IMG/VR virus record: IMGVR_UViG_2851976983_000001
Coordinates: 36,474 to 100,473 of that record
From: a virus
Lineage: Duplodnaviria; Heunggongvirae; Uroviricota; Caudoviricetes
DNA: 64,000 bases
Strand: one strand, 5' to 3'
The translations under genes and the position numbers were made by a program. Shown here piece by piece: positions 558 through 12,382 of the stretch. How positions within the stretch are numbered: position 1 is the stretch's first letter; every line of letters begins with the position of its first letter. The notes under the pieces are model-generated. The model did no database searches and was not told the origin of the DNA. It saw nothing but the letters and a program-made list of their open reading frames with translations.

Positions 558-739
558 CATCGTTGGTTTGCAAGACAGACCTTATGTAAGCAGTTTTAGT
601 AAAGCAGTCTCAGTTCAGTGTTATCTTCTGATTTCCCTTCTTCGTGAGTCTCCTCCTTAAGTGCCTAAGTAAGTCCCAATCTATACAGATCAAATTCTCG
701 CCGCACTATGTGGCTCACAAAATTAAGAAGGTAATATCT

Positions 740-955
740 ATGTCTAATAAAATGACTGGTTTAGTAAAATGGTTTAACTCTGATAAAGGCTTTGGCTTTA
801 TTTCTCCTGCTGATGGCAGTAAAGATGTTTTTGTACATTTTTCGGCAATTCAGAGTAATAATTTCCGCACTTTGGAAGAAGGCCAGCAGGTCGAATTCTC
901 TATCGAGAATGGGGCTAAAGGCCCAGCAGCAGCAAATGTCGTTGCTCTAAGCTGA
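740..955 (+). CDS. csp: cold-shock protein, CspA family
   Basis: [23 protein letters not shown]...VFVHFSAIQ with RNP1/RNP2-like motifs; start refined to the internal ATG at 740 within ORF 644..955. Confidence 0.9.
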
Positions 956-1230: not shown

Positions 1231-1260
1231 AAACCCGCCAACAGGCGGGTTTTCTTTATT
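1231..1260. terminator. bidirectional terminator between csp and the polymerase gene
   Basis: CCCGCC-AACA-GGCGGG hairpin flanked by an A-tract upstream and TTTTCTTTATT downstream. Confidence 0.6.
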
Positions 1261-4200
1261 ACTTATTTATTGTCTCCGCGATATCAGCCAGAATGGCCTC
1301 CAGTCGCTCTCCTTCTTCCGGTCGGAAGTACAGGATATTCGGGTTAAATCCGTAGAAGACGGTTGCATCAAGCTCTGGGAAGTACTCCTTACGACCAATC
1401 AGATCTGATGGTTTACTCTTATTGTTAAATAGTGCGGTTGAACGACTACCACACGTCAAAATGTAGGTTGGTCGTACAAGATTAATTTCTTCCCGCATAA
1501 AGTCTGTGAACTGGCCTATCTCGTCTTTGGTATAGTCTTTCTCTTTGTCCTTAACCTTCTTACAAACACCCGTGACATAAAGATCGCCCATGCGCAGATC
1601 TCCAACTGTCAGTAGTTTTGCCTTAAAGTCGTCGTATCCGTTCTCCATGAAGTAGCCGGTACGAGCGTCATTGCCGTTCGCATTGTCCAGAATGATCATG
1701 ATTTTGGGTTTAATACCAATAGTCGGGCGTATCAACTCCTCACCCAAGCCCATTTCAGCCGCCATACGTGTCATGAGTACGTTGATTTCGGCAGAACGCT
1801 TAGGATTCATTTCGAACGGACGTGATGCTTTAACAGCGTCAATGATGAGATTGCCCATCAGTTCAGCCTGGTCGCGCAGTCGTTCAGGATCAGTTGCTGG
1901 CAGACTGCCTGGCTCAATTGACGCAAAAGCCCCTACTTTATGAAGCGACTCGCGTACACGACTGTTACATGCACGCTTCTCGACCGCTTCATCGAATTGT
2001 GCCACTGACTCGAATTTGCCACCAACTTTCTCACGCGCACGCATAATTGCCTGACAACCATTTTCAGAACAGCCTTTCACAGCAGAGAATGGCGCATACA
2101 GTGCCTGACTGCCGTCTTCGAGTGTGCGGATCTCAATTCGGTTAGATGACACATTAACGTCTGGTGGCAATACGCGAATGCCATAGGTCAGCGCATCCTT
2201 CACCAGCCCCTGATGCTTATCCTCGCCCAGAATGGTGAGCGCAGCTGCGAAGAACTCAGCAGGGTAGTGCGTCTTTAGCCACATAGACTGATAACTGATT
2301 AAAGAATAAGCAACGGAGTGTGATTTATTGAACTGATAGGCTCCGTTTTTCTCAAATGCAGTCCATATCTCTTTTGCCTTCGTCTCAGACAGACCTGGAT
2401 GTGACGTTGTAACGCGCACAACTGGCATTGGCAGCTTCACTCCATGCTCCAACGCCTCTTCAACTGTCCTCAGAGTACCGTCCTCGCATTTAAAATGTTC
2501 TGCGCGATGAATCCGTTGTATTGCGCCATTTTCAAGCTCTACGTCGATCCACCCAGCTTGAGCCTGAATGACAAATTTCTCACCCATGCTCCTCATCTTT
2601 TCCATGTTCTTCTTACCGATTGCTGAACGCACACCATCCGCCTCGGCCATTGTGAAACCAGCAAGAAGCCTTGTTGCGTTCATCGTTTGTTCCTGATAGA
2701 GAATCACTCCATTTGTTTCAGAGGTCAGTTCATCCAAGACAGGATGTAGTGATGTAGGCGTCATAAATCCTTTCGCAACGGAAACATAGTCATCCAACAT
2801 GCCGGATTGAATCGGTCCCGGTCGGAAGAGGGCGGTAGTTGCGACAACGGTTTTGAAACTCATTGGCTCGATGCCACCGCCCAGATCTTTAAGCAGCTTA
2901 CGCATGGGGCCGGACTCCAGCTGGAATACGCCCTGCGTGTACCCTGCAGCGAACCCATCCAGAACCTTGCGATCGTCCAGTGGGATAGCGTCGAGATTGA
3001 TGTCTTCACCGGTACTCTCTTTGATGTAGCGTTTCGCGCTATCCAGAAGATCGAGTGTTGCCAGACCGAGAACGTCCAACTTAATCAGCCCCATCGCCTC
3101 GCAGTAACGTTTATCGAACGCAATACATCGAGCATTGCCACGCAGCTCGACGGGCGTGCGCTCTACTAATGGAACGCCAGCGACGATCATCCCCGCAGCG
3201 TGACGACCAAAACCACGCATCAGGCTTTGCAGCTTACACGCCGCTTTGAACGCTTCCGGGTTTTTCGTGGCGTATTTGTCCAGGCTGGCCAGTTGCTCGC
3301 GCAGCTCTTCCAGAGACAGGCTGTCGTCCTCCATATTCTTGAACTCTTTGGATACCGCCATATCCGCAGCATCGACACCGTAAATACGTGCAGTGTCACG
3401 CAGCGCAGATGCCGCGCCCAGATAGGTGAAGTTCGGAATGCCTGCAACGTAATCTTCGCCGTAGCGTTCATTCAGATACTCGATCACCTCATGGCGACGT
3501 GCCTGGCTGAAGTCCAAGTCCGCATCCGGCAAGTCGAGACGCTCAGGGTTGATGAAACGCTCAAACAGAAGACCGTGACGGATTGGGTCGACGTTGGTTA
3601 TGCCTATGCACCACGCCACCAGAGAACCGGCAGAGGAACCACGACCAGGCCCGACAGGAATGCCAGTTTCACGGCTGTGATTCATCAGATCGCGTACCAT
3701 CAGGAAGTAACCACAGAATCCCAGGCGAGTCAGCGTGTCCATTTCGTACTTTAGCCGCTCAACATAAACCCTGTTCTCAGAAGCAGGTGGTGTGTATCCA
3801 AACTCTTTTGTGGTAAGACGTTTACGCAGCCCTGCAACAGCCAGTTTCATCAGCGTTGCAGGTTCGTCGTCTGCCATCTTGGGCAGTGCTGGTGGCAATT
3901 CATGCCAGCGCCATGTGCAGGCATCGATAATGGAGTCCTGCGTTGTTGAGGCCATTGCAGCTGTTACCGGCACATCCATGCGAACGGAGAAGGCTTTAAG
4001 CGCCTCAAGGAGATGGCGACGACCATTGATGGCGTTATCTCGCTGGTGGGGGATACGCAGACGATGCGGCTGGTCGATTTTTATGTTGTTCGTAACCATG
4101 TGCGCAATGTCTTTAATGTCTGCATCGTCGATCGATTCGTAATAAGCGGGATAGAACGCCACTGGCTCTATTTTCAATGCGCTGGCGACTTTCATCGCCC

Positions 4201-4777
4201 GGACGTTAATCTGGTCGTAGAATGGGGTAGGGTGCGGATAAACCACACTATAGAAGTTGTCTTTTCCACCCGCTGTAATCAGTGTGCTTATGATTTTTGC
4301 AAAATCGTTGCGTTGGAACACGCTACCGATGTCGGAAGTAAGCAGGATGATGTTACCTTTGGCATATGTAGAAACCAACTGTTCGAGCGAGAGACGCGGT
4401 ACAAAGTAGAACTGTTCTCGTGTGTTGGCCGCCGTCATTAGTTCGCAGATGTCGCGATATCCTTTCTCATTTTTAATTAGAGCGGTAAACGAGTAGTTAC
4501 GTCCTCGCTCCAATGATTCCATACATCCCTTAGACTCTTTAGCAAGTTTAGCCCGGTGCTCGTATGTGGGATCATCAACGATGTTTAGTTTCACACCACA
4601 AATAACCGCCATGTCGTCACCAGCGGCACGTTGTAGTGGAATAACGCTCGCAATATTCATGCTATCTGCTGAAATTACAGCGGTGTAGCCAGCTTCTCTG
4701 GCAATCTTCACCGCGTTTTCTGCTTTTAAAGCCGACTCCCCAAGTGAGAAGTCAGTTCGAACCATCAGTGCCTTCAT
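1259..4777 (-). CDS. dnaE: DNA polymerase III alpha subunit (DnaE-type replicative polymerase)
   Basis: 1172 aa; N-terminal PHP domain; core GFCGYFLMVRDLMNHSRETGIPVGPGRGSSAGSLVAWCIGITNVDP typical of Pol III alpha. Confidence 0.9.
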   Translation of the reverse strand: MKALMVRTDFSLGESALKAENAVKIAREAGYTAVISADSMNIASVIPLQRAAGDDMAVICGVKLNIVDDPTYEHRAKLAKESKGCMESLERGRNYSFTALIKNEKGYRDICELMTAANTREQFYFVPRLSLEQLVSTYAKGNIILLTSDIGSVFQRNDFAKIISTLITAGGKDNFYSVVYPHPTPFYDQINVRAMKVASALKIEPVAFYPAYYESIDDADIKDIAHMVTNNIKIDQPHRLRIPHQRDNAINGRRHLLEALKAFSVRMDVPVTAAMASTTQDSIIDACTWRWHELPPALPKMADDEPATLMKLAVAGLRKRLTTKEFGYTPPASENRVYVERLKYEMDTLTRLGFCGYFLMVRDLMNHSRETGIPVGPGRGSSAGSLVAWCIGITNVDPIRHGLLFERFINPERLDLPDADLDFSQARRHEVIEYLNERYGEDYVAGIPNFTYLGAASALRDTARIYGVDAADMAVSKEFKNMEDDSLSLEELREQLASLDKYATKNPEAFKAACKLQSLMRGFGRHAAGMIVAGVPLVERTPVELRGNARCIAFDKRYCEAMGLIKLDVLGLATLDLLDSAKRYIKESTGEDINLDAIPLDDRKVLDGFAAGYTQGVFQLESGPMRKLLKDLGGGIEPMSFKTVVATTALFRPGPIQSGMLDDYVSVAKGFMTPTSLHPVLDELTSETNGVILYQEQTMNATRLLAGFTMAEADGVRSAIGKKNMEKMRSMGEKFVIQAQAGWIDVELENGAIQRIHRAEHFKCEDGTLRTVEEALEHGVKLPMPVVRVTTSHPGLSETKAKEIWTAFEKNGAYQFNKSHSVAYSLISYQSMWLKTHYPAEFFAAALTILGEDKHQGLVKDALTYGIRVLPPDVNVSSNRIEIRTLEDGSQALYAPFSAVKGCSENGCQAIMRAREKVGGKFESVAQFDEAVEKRACNSRVRESLHKVGAFASIEPGSLPATDPERLRDQAELMGNLIIDAVKASRPFEMNPKRSAEINVLMTRMAAEMGLGEELIRPTIGIKPKIMIILDNANGNDARTGYFMENGYDDFKAKLLTVGDLRMGDLYVTGVCKKVKDKEKDYTKDEIGQFTDFMREEINLVRPTYILTCGSRSTALFNNKSKPSDLIGRKEYFPELDATVFYGFNPNILYFRPEEGERLEAILADIAETINK

Positions 4778-4957
4778 GTGTTTTTACCTTTCTGGTTTTT
4801 TTGATTTTGTCATTTGGGAAGCCTACGAACTTCCCATGCATCGAAATCGCAACTTCTTTTGCTGATTGGTGACAATCGGGCTTGTCTGGACACACCAGAC
4901 AAGCCTTACCAGTTTCAGAAGCAGCGATAAGAGAGCCGAAACATCCTTTACGCACGA

Positions 4958-6193
4958 TCAACCAAATATTTTTTGAACAACTTCACGAGCCGCTTGTGCA
5001 GAAGCTGAAGGGAGTTTGTTAATGAAAGAACGCTCAATACCTGTCACAAAGTCGCCTCGCATCATTCCAATCTTGGCCGACAACAAAAGTTCACGAGGGC
5101 CAATTGGCTGACTGATAAGGTGTTCTTCGTATCCATCGCGAACGATACCGGCAAACTTAACCATCTTTTCTGCGTATTCATCCACGATACCGGCATTTAT
5201 CAACATGTTGATCTCTGCCTCTTTGCTCATGTATTTCACATTCGAAACGATGCCAAAACGCGAAAAGTTCGCGGCGTTCTGGATGTTTGTACCCTGGTAC
5301 AAGCCGGTTTCATCACCAGATCCGTTCGTGTTGCCAGTGCCAATGAAAGCAAACCGTTCATGCGGAGTAATGCGACGCCATTCTGGAGTCGCCTCTTTGA
5401 TGACTAACGCTTCACCTTCCAGCACTGGCTGATACACGCCAAGAATTTGTGGAAACGCAAAGTCGTATTCATCCGCGAGGTAAACCCAGCCATGCTTCAT
5501 TGCGAGCGCAAGCAAGCCAGGCTCGAAATACGTAGAGCCATCACGCGCCAGAATTTGCCCCGTAACATGTGCCTCTTCCATTGATGCTGTATGTTGGGCA
5601 CGGATCAACGGACGATTGAGCAAAGCACATAGTTGTGTAGGCAATGACGATTTGCCTGTTCCTGCATGACCCCACAAATAGCCAGGTATGCCAAGTTCAA
5701 GCATCATGAAAATGTCTTTGATCAGTTCGAAGTCGCCATATACGTATCCCTTCTTCACTTCTGGAACGAACTCTGGAAACGGCGTATTGACGTTGACGCT
5801 AACCATGAGCGGCGTCCCACGTTTTGTTCCGAGTTCTTTCACCGTTACATTTAGCAGTTCGTGAGCTGCGACCAGATCTGTCTTGTACTCAACTGTGCCT
5901 GTGTAGCCTGGGCTACTGGTCACGCCAGATGATTTGGCCATTTCGCTTTTTTGCTCGGCACGTTTAGCTTGAATTGCATCAAGTGCCTTTTTCGATAGCG
6001 TTGGCTCATCTGGAAACTGTGTTGTGTACATTTTCAGTACGGTGTCAGGATCGGCATCTTTTACTGACTCAGGAATGCCCTCGCAATTACCATTGGCTAC
6101 ATGGGACTTAAAATAGTGAAATGATTTTCCGCACCACTTGCAAACAAGGTAATCAGAAGGATTTTTTTCATTTTGCAGTGCAGTAGTAGTCAT
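4958..6193 (-). CDS. AAA+ ATPase, CobS/MoxR-like
   Basis: Walker A GHAGTGKSS, Walker B-like VYLADEYD; N-terminal Cys cluster CKWCGK; immediately followed by a vWA partner. Confidence 0.6.
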   Translation of the reverse strand: MTTTALQNEKNPSDYLVCKWCGKSFHYFKSHVANGNCEGIPESVKDADPDTVLKMYTTQFPDEPTLSKKALDAIQAKRAEQKSEMAKSSGVTSSPGYTGTVEYKTDLVAAHELLNVTVKELGTKRGTPLMVSVNVNTPFPEFVPEVKKGYVYGDFELIKDIFMMLELGIPGYLWGHAGTGKSSLPTQLCALLNRPLIRAQHTASMEEAHVTGQILARDGSTYFEPGLLALAMKHGWVYLADEYDFAFPQILGVYQPVLEGEALVIKEATPEWRRITPHERFAFIGTGNTNGSGDETGLYQGTNIQNAANFSRFGIVSNVKYMSKEAEINMLINAGIVDEYAEKMVKFAGIVRDGYEEHLISQPIGPRELLLSAKIGMMRGDFVTGIERSFINKLPSASAQAAREVVQKIFG

Positions 6194-6288
6194 GCGTTTT
6201 TCCTTTGTTTTCTAATGAGCGTTCAACTTCTTATATAAATATATCATTATCTATCGTAAGTGGTTACTTATCGTTAAGGCTGTTTTGT

Positions 6289-8397
6289 TCACTTTAAAAT
6301 GATACGAGATAGTTCAGTAACTACAGATGAACCAAGACTATCAACGCTCGTTACCAGGGCATGTTTTGAGTAAAATCTCTCCGGTGCGTCAGTCATGATG
6401 CCAATTGCCATCAAATCAATGTCAGTCTGCGTTTCAATTTGCTTCGCAACCGAACGCAAATGAGCGTCAAAACCTCTCCCAACAGCCCACGGCGCGCCAT
6501 CACTCAGAACAAGCATGATCTTCCTGTCCTCCATGCGACCGGAAAATAACGATGCAAGGCTGGCTATGCTTTCACCATCCACGTTATTAAGAAGTGGGAA
6601 TGTGTAGCCTACGCACCCCATACGTGAGCGAACTTCGCGAGAATTTACCTTTTCATTCCAATTTTTGATGATAGGTAGCATTAAAGATTCAAAGCGAGAG
6701 AACTCATACTTGACAGCCTTAAGTTCTCCTGCCGCCATATGACTACCAAATGTAGTGAAGCCGGTGATAATGTTGGGAACATTTATTCGATCAAGGGCAT
6801 CGGCGATGGTATATGCACTTGCAAGAGCCAATTGTATCGTTATACCACTCATTGAACCTGATAAATCAATCACTTGTTGAACACAGGCGTTAACGGCTTT
6901 AGATTCTTCTTTTTTACGAAACACGCGATCATCATTCATTGCTAATCTGTAGATACTAGAACCATGAATGCGCCCCCGACGCTGGCCCGGTATAAACTGA
7001 ACTCTGTTTCTGCTTGCTATTGCTCGCTCCAGGTCTTTTGCCAGCGTCGACGAAACACCTGACGAAAGATGCTTTTCAATATATTTGTCGAAGAGCTGGT
7101 TGCCTTCAGGAACGATGCGATAGCGGCTGATTGGATATCCTCCTAAATCAATATCGGAGAATGTTTTAATAAGCCGTTTGATATGGGCTTCTGCCTGATC
7201 AATCGAGCCGATGAAGTCGTATGAGCGATTGTATGGCCTGTATTCGCTTTTCGAGCTTTCTGTTAACTCGCTTTTAATCGTTTCGGATAGAGCATCTTCT
7301 GTCATGCCTCCGACTTCATCTTCTATGCTATCCAGCTCCTCTAAAGCCTCTTCCAGACTCATTTTTGACGGAGTTGGGATATCTGAAGAGCCGTCTTCTG
7401 TCGTTTTTCTTTTTTCGTGGTCAGCGGTTAATGATTCTGACGCCGCGTTATCAGAAGCATCAGAATCTGATACCTCTTTATCATTTTCTGTATCATCGAA
7501 TATTGTTTCTGATGATTCAGAATTATCTGAATCATCACTGTCATTATTATCATGTTTGTACTTACTGTGTGACTCTGGTTTGATAGATTTGTGATTATCT
7601 AGCGATGAGGGTGTCTCATGATCTTCGTCGTCTTCATTGTTTTCTCCAGAGGCATCCGTCTGGTCAGCGTCTGAAGGATCGGAAGTTTTTCCCGGAGCTG
7701 ACTCCTTACCTTTGCTTTCACTTTCAGTGTCTTTGAGGATCTTAGCTATGGTCGCAGCCACCTTTACACAATCCTCGGTGCAAGACATGTTACGCACGGC
7801 CACATCGATACCATGTTCTTTTAATAATGAAATTGGTTTCTCAATGACAGGCCAGTATTCATCCATGAAATCTACGAACGGTGCTTGGCCATCCCAGGCT
7901 CTTACAACCGGACAGAGAAAGAAGTTTAGAAAAAGCGCGCGCTGATCTTTGCCACAATAAGCAATAGCCTCTGAAGCCTTTGGTTTAAAGACTTTTTCGA
8001 TTATAAGGCGTTGAGTTGCCATCAGATTACGTCTTGTTCCGTTAAAGACCTGCCCCATTTTTCGCTCGATGAACACGTCTTCTAAGGCATTCCATAGCGA
8101 CCAGGAAGGAACGCGTCCTTTTTCTCTCATTTTGTTGGACACACGAATATCGGTAAACAAAATGTGAGCAACCTCATGATCGAGAAATCCGCGCACAGCA
8201 TTCATCAATGCCGGTGTTGCGTTATCCGGGATTGATGGGATGTTTACGAGAATTGGCTCTCCATCATCGTTATAGCGTACATAAGCGTCGTCTCCTCGTT
8301 CTGCAACAGGGATGTTTTTACCTGAAAGGAGAGCGACTACTCGTTTTACACTGTCACGGAAGTCCTGAACCTCTTTGATGGAACGTTTTTTAGACAT
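6289..8397 (-). CDS. CobT-like von Willebrand factor A domain protein with acidic low-complexity linker
   Basis: C-terminal vWA MIDAS motif VIDLSGSMSG (DxSxS); central D/E/S-rich region; paired with the upstream AAA+ ATPase. Confidence 0.6.
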   Translation of the reverse strand: MSKKRSIKEVQDFRDSVKRVVALLSGKNIPVAERGDDAYVRYNDDGEPILVNIPSIPDNATPALMNAVRGFLDHEVAHILFTDIRVSNKMREKGRVPSWSLWNALEDVFIERKMGQVFNGTRRNLMATQRLIIEKVFKPKASEAIAYCGKDQRALFLNFFLCPVVRAWDGQAPFVDFMDEYWPVIEKPISLLKEHGIDVAVRNMSCTEDCVKVAATIAKILKDTESESKGKESAPGKTSDPSDADQTDASGENNEDDEDHETPSSLDNHKSIKPESHSKYKHDNNDSDDSDNSESSETIFDDTENDKEVSDSDASDNAASESLTADHEKRKTTEDGSSDIPTPSKMSLEEALEELDSIEDEVGGMTEDALSETIKSELTESSKSEYRPYNRSYDFIGSIDQAEAHIKRLIKTFSDIDLGGYPISRYRIVPEGNQLFDKYIEKHLSSGVSSTLAKDLERAIASRNRVQFIPGQRRGRIHGSSIYRLAMNDDRVFRKKEESKAVNACVQQVIDLSGSMSGITIQLALASAYTIADALDRINVPNIITGFTTFGSHMAAGELKAVKYEFSRFESLMLPIIKNWNEKVNSREVRSRMGCVGYTFPLLNNVDGESIASLASLFSGRMEDRKIMLVLSDGAPWAVGRGFDAHLRSVAKQIETQTDIDLMAIGIMTDAPERFYSKHALVTSVDSLGSSVVTELSRIILK

Positions 8398-8495: not shown

Positions 8496-8708
8496 TTAAC
8501 AGATTCTGACGGCTAAAGACCCGGAGCCGGTATTGAGAAGCGTGAAGCGTTTGTTGTTAAGTTCGAATATAAAGCCAGTTGTGTCATTCACACCAACCTG
8601 AATCTGCTCATTCGGTAGATCGGTGAGGATGTCAGCTACACACTCATCAGCTAATTTCTGTACGTGTCCGATCTCAAGAGCGATTAGGCTGGAAATAGTG
8701 GTGTTCAT
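8496..8708 (-). CDS. hypothetical small protein
   Basis: 70-aa ORF in an otherwise non-coding, AT-rich divergent region. Confidence 0.3.
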   Translation of the reverse strand: MNTTISSLIALEIGHVQKLADECVADILTDLPNEQIQVGVNDTTGFIFELNNKRFTLLNTGSGSLAVRIC

Positions 8709-8959: not shown

Positions 8960-9346
8960 ATGTCTGATAACAAGATTGAATTTATAGAAAGTCGCTACGC
9001 TGCTTTTATCGCAGGGTTGATTGAATCCTCACCTATGAGCCAGGCCCAGATAGCCAAAACAATTGGGTATAAAAACGCCAACAACCTTTCTTTAATTAAA
9101 AGTGGCAAAATTCCTTTGCCTATCGATAAGGTTCGTCCGCTGGCGCTGGCGCTGGGTATTGAGCCTAGTCGTCTTATGATGATGGTGCTGGAAGAACGCC
9201 AACCTGAACTCGCAGCATTTTTGTACAAAGAAGGCACCGCTCCTCTTAACGAGGACGAAAAACAGGTTCTTGCTGCATATAACGAGCGATTCGGTAAAGA
9301 GAAAGGCGCATCACAAAAGGTTGTTGAGGCCATAAAGTCTCTATGA
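8960..9346 (+). CDS. helix-turn-helix DNA-binding protein (XRE/Cro-CI-like regulator)
   Basis: SQAQIAKTIGYKNANNLSLIKSGK HTH-like segment; convergent with and overlapping the integrase 3' end. Confidence 0.5.
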   Translation: MSDNKIEFIESRYAAFIAGLIESSPMSQAQIAKTIGYKNANNLSLIKSGKIPLPIDKVRPLALALGIEPSRLMMMVLEERQPELAAFLYKEGTAPLNEDEKQVLAAYNERFGKEKGASQKVVEAIKSL

Positions 9347-11495: not shown

Positions 11496-12269
11496 TTACT
11501 GATAGGCTTCCAGTGCGACTTTGCATAGCTCAGAACGCACGCAATCTTCGGTCGCAAACTCAATAAGGCCAACATGGGAGGAAGGTTTAAATCGCTCCAG
11601 TGCATCTTCCAGACCAGACTTAACATTGCTTGGCAGGTCGCATTGCGTCACATCTCCGTTCACAATGACGGTTACGTTCTCGCCCATACGGGTCAGGAAT
11701 ATTTTCATTTGTGACGCTGTAACGTTTTGCGCCTCATCGAGAATGACTACAGCGTTCTCGAACGTGCGCCCACGCATGTAAGCGAATGGGGCAATCTCTA
11801 CTTTGGCCACCTCTGGCTTTAAGCAATATTCAAGGAACGAGCCACCCAAACGCTTCTGTAACACGTCATAGACGGGACGGAAGAACGGAGCGAACTTCTC
11901 GCTCATGTCGCCCGGAAGGAAGCCCAGATCTTCTTCTGCTTGCAATACTGGACGCGTCACGATGATCTTCCCGACTTCCTTATCCAGCAGACGCTGCGCT
12001 GCGACGGCAGCTGCCAGGTAGGTCTTGCCGCAACCGGCTTCACCAGTGGCGAACGTCAGAGGTTTGGTATCGAGGGATATAAGATAGTGGGCCTGGGCCT
12101 CGTTACGTGCTTCGATGGGAGAGTTGTCACGTTTAGGTTTTGGTGGCAGAGCAGGGGCGGCAGCCAGCTCGTCAACGATGATTGTGTCAATTTCGTAGCC
12201 GTGGATGCGTGGTTTTGACTTCAGCGCCTGACGAGCTGCGCGACGCGCCTGTTTACGTTTGTTTCCCAT
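11496..12269 (-). CDS. phoH: PhoH-family ATPase
   Basis: Walker A GEAGCGKTYLA and conserved PhoH core; start refined to MGNKRK with AAAGGA RBS. Confidence 0.85.
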   Translation of the reverse strand: MGNKRKQARRAARQALKSKPRIHGYEIDTIIVDELAAAPALPPKPKRDNSPIEARNEAQAHYLISLDTKPLTFATGEAGCGKTYLAAAVAAQRLLDKEVGKIIVTRPVLQAEEDLGFLPGDMSEKFAPFFRPVYDVLQKRLGGSFLEYCLKPEVAKVEIAPFAYMRGRTFENAVVILDEAQNVTASQMKIFLTRMGENVTVIVNGDVTQCDLPSNVKSGLEDALERFKPSSHVGLIEFATEDCVRSELCKVALEAYQ

Positions 12270-12382
12270 ATTGAGTCCTTTCAAGTGAGTAACTGAAAGA
12301 ACTATACCGACAAATCATAGGTAAGTCATTACCTATTTTTTGTGTATTATCCCTCTACCATATAGAGGGATATCTTCATGAC

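What the first reader, a model, noticed from the sequence alone, without database searches (positions are those of the whole stretch)
4958..8397. CobS/MoxR-like AAA+ ATPase and CobT-like vWA protein next to the phage DnaE
The AAA+ ATPase and a 702-aa vWA-domain protein with a long acidic linker form a pair seen in some large phages, where their function is unresolved. Here they sit directly upstream of a full-length Pol III alpha homolog.
Basis: partly seen in the sequence, partly recalled or inferred. Interest (0 to 1): 0.45.

Follow-up and report, generated by a model that had tools for sequence, protein, structure and literature searches.

The report
Phage CobS/CobT-like ATPase–adaptor pair
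This is the already-annotated, still uncharacterised CobS/CobT-like motor-and-adaptor gene pair of an SSU5-type E. coli phage-plasmid; it almost certainly does not make vitamin B12, and it probably works as an ATP-driven protein-remodelling machine with its own zinc peptidase during the phage's lytic DNA replication.

Summary
On the minus strand, 8397..6289 encodes a 702-aa CobT-like protein and 6193..4958 a 411-aa MoxR-class AAA+ ATPase. A 69-aa ORF and a 1172-aa DnaE follow. The window is 97% identical to the E. coli phage-plasmid Cyrano (SSU5 group). The identical pair sits on plasmids in 216 of 5,426 complete E. coli genomes, so the feature is known and its function is not.

What I add:
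- Both proteins score far below NCBI's CobS/CobT equivalog cut-offs. The window has no CobN, and E. coli is not known to have one.
- The adaptor's N-domain keeps an invariant HExxH…E zinc-peptidase signature (239 of 240 relatives). Canonical CobT has lost it.
- All five MIDAS residues, the shaft segment and the residues aligned to canonical CobS-contacting positions are conserved.
- The ATPase carries an extra N-terminal Ros/MucR-like zinc finger.
- The pair lies in the DNA-replication module in four unrelated phage lineages that use different polymerases.
- In the Cyrano lysogen it is transcriptionally silent, together with DnaE.

Best reading: a CobN-independent, lytic-phase AAA+/vWA remodelling machine with a probably active peptidase. 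Its client is unknown.

The parts
8960..9346 (+). HTH repressor-like gene (128 aa), transcribed divergently from the operon that holds the pair
   Evidence: Pfam HTH_19, E=8e-4. Its Cyrano equivalent, CYRAN_45 'putative repressor', is expressed in the lysogen at 95.75 normalised units.
8496..8708 (-). 70-aa ORF, first gene of the minus-strand operon (phrog_2627, unknown function)
   Evidence: An AT-rich 250-nt intergenic region separates it from the repressor gene.
6289..8397 (-). CobT-like adaptor, 702 aa. Layout: M48-like N-domain, acidic linker, shaft, vWA domain.
   Evidence: Pfam CobT 4e-27 and CobT_C 2e-82. PDB CobT hits. 41-sequence alignment A2.
7732..8397 (-). N-terminal domain (aa 1-222). 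Predicted as helix, three-stranded sheet, then a helical bundle; zincin/M48-like.
8164..8178 (-). HExxH motif (H74-E75-V-A-H78). Candidate third ligands are E106 and E111.
   Evidence: Invariant in alignment A2. Present in 239 of 240 full-length relatives. Replaced by S-M-A-L-R in canonical Rhizobium CobT.
7243..7725 (-). Acidic, Ser-rich disordered linker (aa ~225-385)
   Evidence: 51 D/E and 31 S in the 166 residues 225-390. Length and sequence are hypervariable among relatives, whose total lengths run 580-804 aa. Canonical CobT also has an acidic linker.
6292..7080 (-). Shaft-like segment (aa ~440-500) and vWA domain. MIDAS residues D511, S513, S515, N605, D633; the D511-S515 motif is at nt 6853-6867.
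   Evidence: Invariant K454, L456, E457, R458, A459, G471, R473, G475, D489, R491, V492, F493, and D511, S513, S515, N605, D633. These align to canonical CobT MIDAS D422/S424/S426/N518/D546 and to its shaft.
4958..6193 (-). CobS-like MoxR-class AAA+ ATPase, 411 aa
   Evidence: 40-sequence alignment A1.
6083..6148 (-). N-terminal zinc-finger-like element (C18, C21, H31, C37) inside a ~95-aa extension that canonical CobS lacks; followed by the FPDxPxLS motif
   Evidence: C18 is invariant; C21 and H31 are >=90% conserved. 13 of 40 family members hit Pfam ROS_MUCR, best E=7.7e-5. The window's own protein does not hit it. The N-terminal 100 aa also match repeated C2HC and Ros/MucR finger proteins.
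4961..5773 (-). AAA+ module (aa 141-411). Walker A G175-S182 at nt 5648-5671; Walker B D241-E242 at nt 5468-5473.
   Evidence: Invariant G175, G178, G180, K181, D241, E242. Aligns to CobS 9ujv residues 38-315.
4752..4961 (-). 69-aa four-cysteine ORF between the ATPase and DnaE (motif GCFGS-x12-C-x2-C-x5-C)
   Evidence: phrog_6337, E=2e-45. Its start overlaps the ATPase stop and its end overlaps the DnaE start by 26 nt. Homologues occupy the same position in six relatives.
1259..4777 (-). DnaE (Pol III alpha), 1172 aa, with a C-terminal family-4 UDG-like domain
   Evidence: The same fusion occurs in relatives.
1231..1252 (.). GC-rich hairpin just past the DnaE stop codon; likely the end of the operon
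   Evidence: The scan flagged it on the plus strand, and the palindrome reads the same on both strands. No comparable hairpin lies on the minus strand between 8400 and 1260; the single minus-strand hit there (1946..1929) has a 5-pair stem.

Best explanation
The two genes encode a MoxR-class AAA+ hexameric motor (CobS-like) and its vWA adaptor (CobT-like). They probably assemble as the cobaltochelatase CobS-CobT complex does. A shaft preceding the vWA domain inserts into the ATPase ring, the adaptor's N-domain docks on the ATPase small domain, and the client is held between the MIDAS face and the N-domain.

This is not a cobalt chelatase. The host has no CobN, and the adaptor's M48-like N-domain keeps an HExxH…E zinc site that true CobT has lost. 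I therefore infer a protein client that is remodelled by ATP hydrolysis and probably cleaved.

The pair is promoter-proximal in the repressor-controlled lytic operon that continues into DnaE. It is silent in the lysogen and lies in the replication module in unrelated phage lineages. The client is therefore most likely a protein connected with setting up phage DNA replication. The Ros/MucR-like zinc finger on the ATPase may tether the machine to DNA.

Shown: homology, motifs, fold class, synteny, silence in the lysogen. Inferred: complex architecture, peptidase activity, link to replication, identity of the client.
For: Homology and fold:
- CobS/CobT homology and a MoxR fold.
- Walker A and B motifs and all five MIDAS residues are invariant.

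Complex architecture:
- The shaft-equivalent segment is conserved (compared).
- D73 and N124 are invariant. They align to canonical CobT D80 and N130, which contact CobS in the crystal structure.
- The β3-α2 loop contacts CobN in the canonical enzyme. Here it is an invariant VNxPxxPDNA, unlike the canonical sequence.

Peptidase site:
- HExxH is present in 239 of 240 relatives and absent from canonical CobT.
- The zincin-type hits are weak but point the same way, and the M48C resemblance of CobT_N is published.

Not a chelatase:
- NCBIfam equivalog scores are 84.8 against a cut-off of 558.55, and 66.2 against 759.05.
- No CobN was found among the large ORFs scanned.

Operon and replication context:
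- Genes are tightly packed or overlapping, with no comparable minus-strand hairpin before the end of DnaE.
- Cyrano lysogen RNA-seq gives CobT-like 7.8, CobS-like 6.7, DnaE 10.1 and the repressor 95.8.
- Replication-module placement is seen in SSU5-like and ~100-120 kb DnaE phages, in cyanophage P-SSM4 between gp46 and gp45/44/62, and in Vibrio ICP2-like JSF27 upstream of a helicase and PolA.
- Family members carry a Ros/MucR-type finger.
Against: - There is no experimental evidence for peptidase activity, complex formation or any client.
- Pseudomonas Nickievirus phiK7B1 keeps the pair next to DnaE but has lost both histidines (DSEISK). Peptidase chemistry is therefore dispensable in at least one lineage.
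- Placement in a replication module is weak functional evidence. Within the DnaE lineage it is simply inherited synteny.
- The window's own ATPase does not reach significance against ROS_MUCR.
- The absence of CobN from E. coli rests on established knowledge, not on a search I could run.
Confidence: 0.5

Rival explanations
1. Cobaltochelatase motor. The viral CobS-CobT pair hijacks the host's CobN to raise cobalamin supply for nucleotide synthesis. This is the reading behind the 'porphyrin/cobalamin biosynthesis' annotations, and Liu et al. 2021 proposed it.
For: Clear homology to CobS and CobT, including the MIDAS, shaft and linker. The proposal is in PMC8651126.
Against: - By established knowledge, E. 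coli has no CobN and no de novo corrin pathway, and Salmonella and Klebsiella use the ATP-independent chelatase CbiK. I could not test this here.
- No CobN was found in the window.
- Scores are far below the CobS/CobT equivalog cut-offs.
- The conserved HExxH, and a β3-α2 loop unlike the canonical CobN-contacting loop, are not explained.
- The genes are silent in the lysogen.
Confidence: 0.04
2. Virion-assembly chaperone and co-chaperone with peptidolytic processing of structural proteins. Iyer et al. 2021 proposed this for the MoxR-vWA-metallopeptidase pair of T4-like jumbo phages.
For: The same architecture (MoxR plus a metallopeptidase-vWA protein) was described in PMC7824862. That paper cites a MoxR-vWA system needed for tail development in an archaeal virus.
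Against: - In all four lineages examined, the pair lies among replication and recombination genes and not in the morphogenesis module.
- In this window the structural genes lie more than 20 kb away.
- Here it is the promoter-proximal part of the operon next to the repressor.
Confidence: 0.12
3. Metallochaperone. Like NorQD, CoxDE or the chelatases, the pair uses ATP to insert a metal into a client enzyme. Candidates are the DnaE PHP domain and the adjacent four-cysteine protein. The HExxH…E site would hold the metal and would not cut peptide bonds.
For: - The closest structural relatives of the ATPase are metal-centre assembly motors (NorQ) and the CobS chelatase motor.
- A conserved four-cysteine ORF and a PHP-domain polymerase follow directly and appear translationally coupled.
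- The glutamates E106 and E111 are also kept in canonical CobT.
Against: - Cyanophage and ICP2-like versions have no DnaE and no four-cysteine ORF next to them.
- HExxH on a zincin scaffold is the classic catalytic signature, not a transfer site.
- There is no direct evidence.
Confidence: 0.14
4. Host-takeover or counter-defence protease. The machine recognises and destroys or disables a host protein, such as a defence or nucleoid protein, early in the lytic cycle and with no specific link to replication.
For: Lytic-only expression and early-operon position. A peptidase signature. A vWA MIDAS suited to grip an acidic residue on a foreign protein.
Against: - The pair is highly conserved and syntenic across very distant hosts (Enterobacteria, Rhizobium, Pseudomonas, Stenotrophomonas, Vibrio, cyanobacteria). 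Typical counter-defence genes are variable accessory genes.
- There are no significant PADLOC matches.
Confidence: 0.15

Closest known systems
Aerobic cobaltochelatase motor CobS-CobT (Pseudomonas denitrificans/Rhizobiales type; PDB 9ujv, 9uka, 21vt)
   Same: - A MoxR-class AAA+ ATPase paired with an adaptor built as M48-like N-domain, acidic disordered linker, shaft and vWA domain with a five-residue MIDAS.
- Positions aligned to the canonical CobS-contacting residues of CobT_N are conserved.
   Different: - There is no CobN partner.
- Scores are far below the equivalog cut-offs.
- Gene order is reversed: adaptor then ATPase here, against cobS then cobT.
- HExxH is intact here and lost in CobT.
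- The ATPase has an extra ~95-aa N-terminal zinc-finger extension.
- The sequence aligned to the CobN-contacting β3-α2 loop differs.
Viral 'cobST' gene cluster / MoxR-vWA-metallopeptidase pair (cyanomyovirus cobS plus 'peptidase', SSU5 'porphyrin biosynthesis' proteins; PHROGs 249 and 1576)
   Same: This is that family. PHROG matches are 2e-106 and 6e-302. The ATPase is 100% identical and the pair's DNA 97% identical to Escherichia phage Cyrano. Cyanophage and Vibrio members share the adaptor-then-ATPase order, the HExxH motif and the MIDAS.
   Different: Nothing essential differs. Cyanophage ATPases lack the Ros/MucR-like finger and have a different N-terminal extension.
NorQ-NorD and CbbQ-CbbO (MoxR AAA+ ATPase plus vWA adaptor that remodels a metalloenzyme client)
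   Same: These are the best structural matches for the ATPase (Foldseek 2.7e-16 to 6e-15, TM to target 0.85-0.87). The logic is the same: a hexameric motor with a MIDAS-bearing adaptor.
   Different: - Sequence identity is only 16-22%.
- I know of no HExxH peptidase domain in NorD or CbbO, but I did not test this here.
- The clients of those systems (cNOR, Rubisco) are absent from this element.
M48/M56 gluzincin metallopeptidases and minigluzincins (ZMPSTE24, HtpX, BlaR1, abylysin)
   Same: HExxH on the helix after a three-stranded sheet, conserved glutamates on the next helix, and weak but consistent fold matches.
   Different: The protein is soluble and fused to a vWA domain. Fold scores are low, and activity is unproven.

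Membership tests
Cobaltochelatase CobS (TIGR01650) / CobT (TIGR01651) equivalogs | Whole-protein score above the curated equivalog cut-off | tested here: not met
   CobS model: 84.8 bits against a cut-off of 558.55. CobT model: 66.2 bits against 759.05.
Cobaltochelatase CobS (TIGR01650) / CobT (TIGR01651) equivalogs | A CobN catalytic subunit available in the element or the host | tested here: not met
   Of the four ORFs of 900 aa or more in the window, DnaE, the 1035-aa tail-tip protein and the 939-aa ORF have no CobN domain. The fourth (1530 aa) was not scanned. It lies in the tail module and corresponds in size to Cyrano's 1,525-aa tape-measure protein. Absence of CobN from E. coli is established knowledge and was not searched here.
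Cobaltochelatase CobS (TIGR01650) / CobT (TIGR01651) equivalogs | CobT N-domain is a pseudo-peptidase (no HExxH) | tested here: not met
   The window has D73-HEVAH78. Canonical Rhizobium CobT has D-SMALR at the aligned positions.
CobS/CobT superfamily (Pfam CobT PF06213, CobT_C PF11775; homology to PDB CobS/CobT) | Significant sequence homology over the AAA+ module, the N-domain and the vWA domain | tested here: met
   PF06213 4e-27 and PF11775 2e-82. 9ujv 1.8e-25. 9uka 1.4e-53 with a profile.
MoxR-class AAA+ ATPase with vWA adaptor | AAA+ fold of the MoxR clade with intact Walker A and B motifs | tested here: met
   Foldseek top hits are NorQ and CbbQ. G175xxGxGK181S and D241-E242 are invariant. 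CbbQ_C hits 29 of 40 family members.
MoxR-class AAA+ ATPase with vWA adaptor | Adjacent gene encoding a vWA protein with a complete MIDAS | tested here: met
   D511, S513, S515, N605 and D633 are invariant. The genes are 95 nt apart on the same strand.
MoxR-class AAA+ ATPase with vWA adaptor | Physical complex, with the adaptor shaft inside the ATPase pore | not testable with these tools
   There is only conservation of the shaft-equivalent segment and of the positions aligned to D80 and N130. No multimer prediction was available.
Gluzincin (M48-like) metallopeptidase | HExxH plus a downstream Glu ligand | tested here: met
   H74, E75, H78, E106 and E111 are invariant in 41 sequences. HExxH is present in 239 of 240 relatives.
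Gluzincin (M48-like) metallopeptidase | Zincin fold | tested here: inconclusive
Gluzincin (M48-like) metallopeptidase | Zinc binding and peptide-bond hydrolysis | not testable with these tools
   Needs biochemistry.
Ros/MucR-type prokaryotic C2H2 zinc finger (PF05443), on the ATPase N-terminus | Significant match to the family model | tested here: inconclusive
   13 of 40 aligned family members match (best E=7.7e-5), but the window's own protein does not match at E<=0.1. It shares the aligned C18, C21 and H31.
Known anti-phage defence systems (PADLOC) | Match to any defence-system protein model | tested here: not met
   The ATPase has no hits. The adaptor has one marginal DrmE hit (E=0.0014, 15 bits).

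The most novel reading that the evidence does not exclude
The widespread viral 'cobS/cobT' genes are routinely counted as cobalamin auxiliary metabolic genes in marine viromics. They may not be B12 genes at all. They may instead encode a DNA-tethered, ATP-driven unfoldase with a zinc protease that removes or processes a protein at the onset of phage DNA replication. That would be a phage counterpart of the eukaryotic p97-SPRTN/Wss1 arrangement, needed across SSU5-like phage-plasmids, cyanomyoviruses and ICP2-like podoviruses.
Probability: 0.2. Interest if true: 0.75.

Novelty: already known. Interest (0 to 1): 0.35.

Why it matters
The pair is common. It is on plasmids in 4% of complete E. coli genomes and in about 1,000 PLSDB plasmids, mostly from Klebsiella, Escherichia, Acinetobacter, Enterobacter, Yersinia and Salmonella. 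It is also in 494 phage records, most of them marine cyanophages. It is routinely annotated as 'porphyrin/cobalamin biosynthesis', and in Cyrano as the unrelated Salmonella-type CobS/CobT enzymes.

If the reading above holds, those annotations are wrong, and so are the ecological inferences drawn from viral 'cobS'. The pair would instead be a conserved lytic-cycle function of clinically relevant phage-plasmids. The conserved HExxH, MIDAS and Walker motifs give clean point mutants for testing it.

Tried and rejected
- A scan of viral contigs with the ATPase alignment returned only close SSU5-type relatives, so it said nothing about distant context. I used annotated phage records and contigs of distant homologues instead.
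- Single-sequence phmmer of the adaptor N-domain against the PDB gave only noise such as HLA chains. The profile run and hhalign were needed.
- The afdb50 fold library was unavailable.
- Foldseek of the N-domain against the PDB gave nothing significant.
- In Xanthomonas phage JGB6 the ATPase match lies under a gene labelled 'DNA polymerase III alpha', which looked like a gene fusion. That record's gene calls are fragmentary throughout, so I rejected it as evidence.
- PADLOC gave no defence-system match.
- Literature searches for experiments on viral CobS/CobT, and for pHCM2/pMT1 with cobS/cobT, found no functional study.
- The N-terminal 100 aa of the ATPase, searched against 1.84 billion representatives, gave only 10 hits and no informative new architecture beyond zinc-finger repeats.
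- The promoter scan found fewer sigma-70-like sites than in shuffled sequence, so no promoter is assigned.
Full report
**What is there.** Three co-oriented ORFs sit on the minus strand: 8397..6289 (702 aa), 6193..4958 (411 aa) and 4777..1259 (1172 aa).
- The 411-aa protein matches Pfam AAA_5 (2e-15) and PHROG 249 'porphyrin biosynthesis' (2e-106).
- The 702-aa protein matches Pfam CobT (4e-27), the CobT_C vWA domain (2e-82) and PHROG 1576 (6e-302).
- The 1172-aa protein is a complete Pol III alpha.
- Residues ~225-390 of the 702-aa protein hold 51 D/E and 31 S in 166 positions, so the 'long acidic linker' is real.

A 69-aa ORF (4961..4752) lies between the ATPase and DnaE and overlaps both.

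**Which element this is.** The region is 97% identical to Escherichia phage Cyrano, the pLF82 phage-plasmid of E. coli LF82, and about 82% identical to Salmonella phage SSU5.
- The same 3.4 kb occurs at 95% identity or more on plasmids in 216 of 5,426 complete E. coli genomes, and never on a chromosome. PGAP labels it 'cobaltochelatase CobT-related protein' and 'AAA family ATPase'.
- A canonical CobT vWA query finds 1,018 PLSDB plasmids. About 1,008 of these match at under 60% identity, mostly in Klebsiella, Escherichia, Acinetobacter, Enterobacter, Yersinia and Salmonella.
- The Cyrano record names the two genes 'cobalamin synthetase' and 'dimethylbenzimidazole phosphoribosyltransferase'. From my own knowledge, those are the unrelated Salmonella-nomenclature CobS and CobT enzymes, so this is a name-collision error.

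**The ATPase.**
- It aligns to solved CobS (9ujv, E=1.8e-25, residues 141-411 against 38-315).
- A 40-sequence alignment down to 45% identity shows invariant Walker A (G175, G178, G180, K181) and Walker B (D241, E242) residues.
- The AlphaFold model (pLDDT 87) is closest to the MoxR ATPases NorQ (2.7e-16) and CbbQ.
- Compared with canonical CobS (330 aa), it has about 95 extra N-terminal residues. These contain C18-x2-C21…H31…C37 and an FPDxPxLS motif.
- 13 of 40 family members hit Pfam ROS_MUCR (best 7.7e-5) through this region. The window's own protein does not.
- The region also matches repeated C2HC and Ros/MucR finger proteins.

**The adaptor.** I aligned 41 sequences, about 30% identical to the window outside the SSU5 group.
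- The MIDAS residues are invariant (D511, S513, S515, N605, D633).
- A block before the vWA domain is invariant (K454, L456, E457, R458, A459, G471, R473, G475, D489, R491, V492, F493). It corresponds to the 'shaft' that canonical CobT inserts into the CobS ring.
- G70-F-L-D-H-E-V-A-H78 is invariant, as are N103, E106, D107 and E111.
- HExxH occurs in 239 of 240 full-length relatives retrieved.
- It also occurs in the cyanophage P-SSM4 'peptidase', in Vibrio phage JSF27 CobT and in a Rhizobium phage CobT.
- In canonical Rhizobium CobT the aligned residues are D-S-M-A-L-R, so both histidines and the glutamate are gone.

The N-domain model (pLDDT 85) has a helix, a three-stranded sheet and then a helical bundle. 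This is the topology reported for the canonical CobT_N crystal structure, which its authors liken to an M48C peptidase domain (bioRxiv 10.64898/2026.07.21.739949). My own fold searches are only weakly supportive:
- Foldseek's only notable hit is the minigluzincin abylysin, at E=0.53.

Iyer et al. 2021 had already noted a MoxR-vWA pair with an N-terminal metallopeptidase in T4-like jumbo phages (PMC7824862).

**Likely architecture.** In the canonical complex, CobT_N residues R76, D80 and N130 contact the CobS small domain. CobN sits between the N-domain (sheet and β3-α2 loop) and the MIDAS face. By the profile and hhalign alignments, with a +4 numbering offset, D80 and N130 correspond to the invariant D73 and N124 here. 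R76 corresponds to R69, which is Q in many relatives. The β3-α2 loop is an invariant VNxPxxPDNA in the phage family and differs from the canonical sequence. I infer that motor-adaptor docking is conserved and that the client-facing surface is different.

**Not a cobaltochelatase here.**
- NCBIfam equivalog scores are 84.8 against 558.55 (CobS) and 66.2 against 759.05 (CobT).
- Gene order is adaptor then ATPase, the reverse of cobS then cobT.
- None of the large ORFs I scanned carries a CobN domain.
- By established knowledge, E. coli has no CobN and no de novo corrin pathway. I did not test this here.
- The published proposal that viral CobST hijacks host CobN (PMC8651126) therefore cannot apply to this element.

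**Context and expression.**
- The operon reads: divergent HTH repressor, 70-aa ORF, adaptor, ATPase, four-cysteine ORF, DnaE, hairpin.
- Cyrano lysogen RNA-seq (S1 Table of PMC9928086) gives 7.8 for the adaptor, 6.7 for the ATPase and 10.1 for DnaE. The repressor is at 95.8 and HicA/HicB at 141-294. The pair is therefore silent in the plasmid state, together with DnaE.
- Relatives at 35-52% identity keep the order adaptor, ATPase, (sigma-like gene), four-cysteine ORF, DnaE-UDG, gp32, 5'-3' exonuclease, RecA. These are uncultured ~100-kb phages, prophages, and Pseudomonas Nickievirus and Rhizobium phages. Stenotrophomonas phages also carry the ATPase, but I did not inspect their context.
- In Prochlorococcus phage P-SSM4 the pair lies between gp46 and gp45/44/62.
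- In the 49-kb Vibrio podovirus JSF27 it lies upstream of a helicase and PolA.
- Linkage to DnaE is therefore lineage synteny. Placement in the replication module recurs with three different polymerase families.

**Caveats.**
- Pseudomonas phage phiK7B1 has lost the histidines (DSEISK) yet keeps the pair next to DnaE.
- No experiment addresses function in the literature I could search.
- Fold evidence for the zincin domain is weak in my hands.
- Module placement is circumstantial.

**Verdict.** This is a real, correctly identified and already catalogued gene pair. The best-supported mechanism is a CobN-independent MoxR/vWA remodelling machine with a probably active zinc peptidase that acts in the lytic, replication-associated programme. 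The client is unknown. My confidence is about 0.5 in that reading, about 0.85 that it is not a cobalt chelatase, and near certainty on the fold and family assignment.

Noticed in passing
window 4752-4961 (minus strand): A 69-aa ORF overlaps the ATPase stop and the DnaE start. It carries G-C-F-G-S-x12-C-x2-C-x5-C. Homologues of 57-184 aa with the same four-cysteine motif sit immediately upstream of DnaE in six relatives. The spacing recalls the CxnCx2Cx5C pattern of WhiB-like Fe-S proteins (my own recollection), but there is no Pfam hit. The Cyrano record does not annotate this ORF.
   Followed up: partly
window 1259-4777 (minus strand), DnaE residues ~1053-1168: The phage Pol III alpha has a C-terminal family-4 uracil-DNA-glycosylase-like domain (TIGR00758, 5e-7). 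The same DnaE-UDG fusion (PF03167) occurs in relatives L002, L090 and L092.
   Followed up: partly
L001 (Escherichia phage Cyrano OV696614), CYRAN_47 and CYRAN_48: The deposited annotation calls the pair 'dimethylbenzimidazole phosphoribosyltransferase' and 'cobalamin synthetase'. These are the unrelated Salmonella-nomenclature CobT and CobS enzymes, so the gene names have been confused.
   Followed up: yes
L002 11182-11856; L087 9209-9844 (Rhizobium phage RHph_N1_10): Some relatives have a sigma-70 region-2-like gene inserted between the ATPase and the four-cysteine ORF. The window has none.
   Followed up: no
L086 5847-7931 (Pseudomonas phage phiK7B1): The CobT-like protein of this Nickievirus has lost both HExxH histidines (GFLDSEISK) but keeps the MIDAS and its position next to DnaE. 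This is an independent loss that parallels canonical CobT.
   Followed up: partly
L093 (Xanthomonas phage JGB6 OQ436456): The replication-module genes of this record are split into many short fragments, and a CobS-like segment is labelled 'DNA polymerase III subunit alpha'. It looks like a low-quality assembly or annotation rather than a real fusion.
   Followed up: partly
window 644-955 (plus strand): A cold-shock-domain protein gene (CSD, 4e-33) lies just beyond the DnaE terminator hairpin, on the opposite strand. L092 has a CSD gene about 4 kb upstream of its CobT-like gene.
   Followed up: no
window 11496-12284 (minus strand): A PhoH-like ATPase gene (PF02562, 1.5e-73) lies upstream of the integrase.
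   Followed up: no
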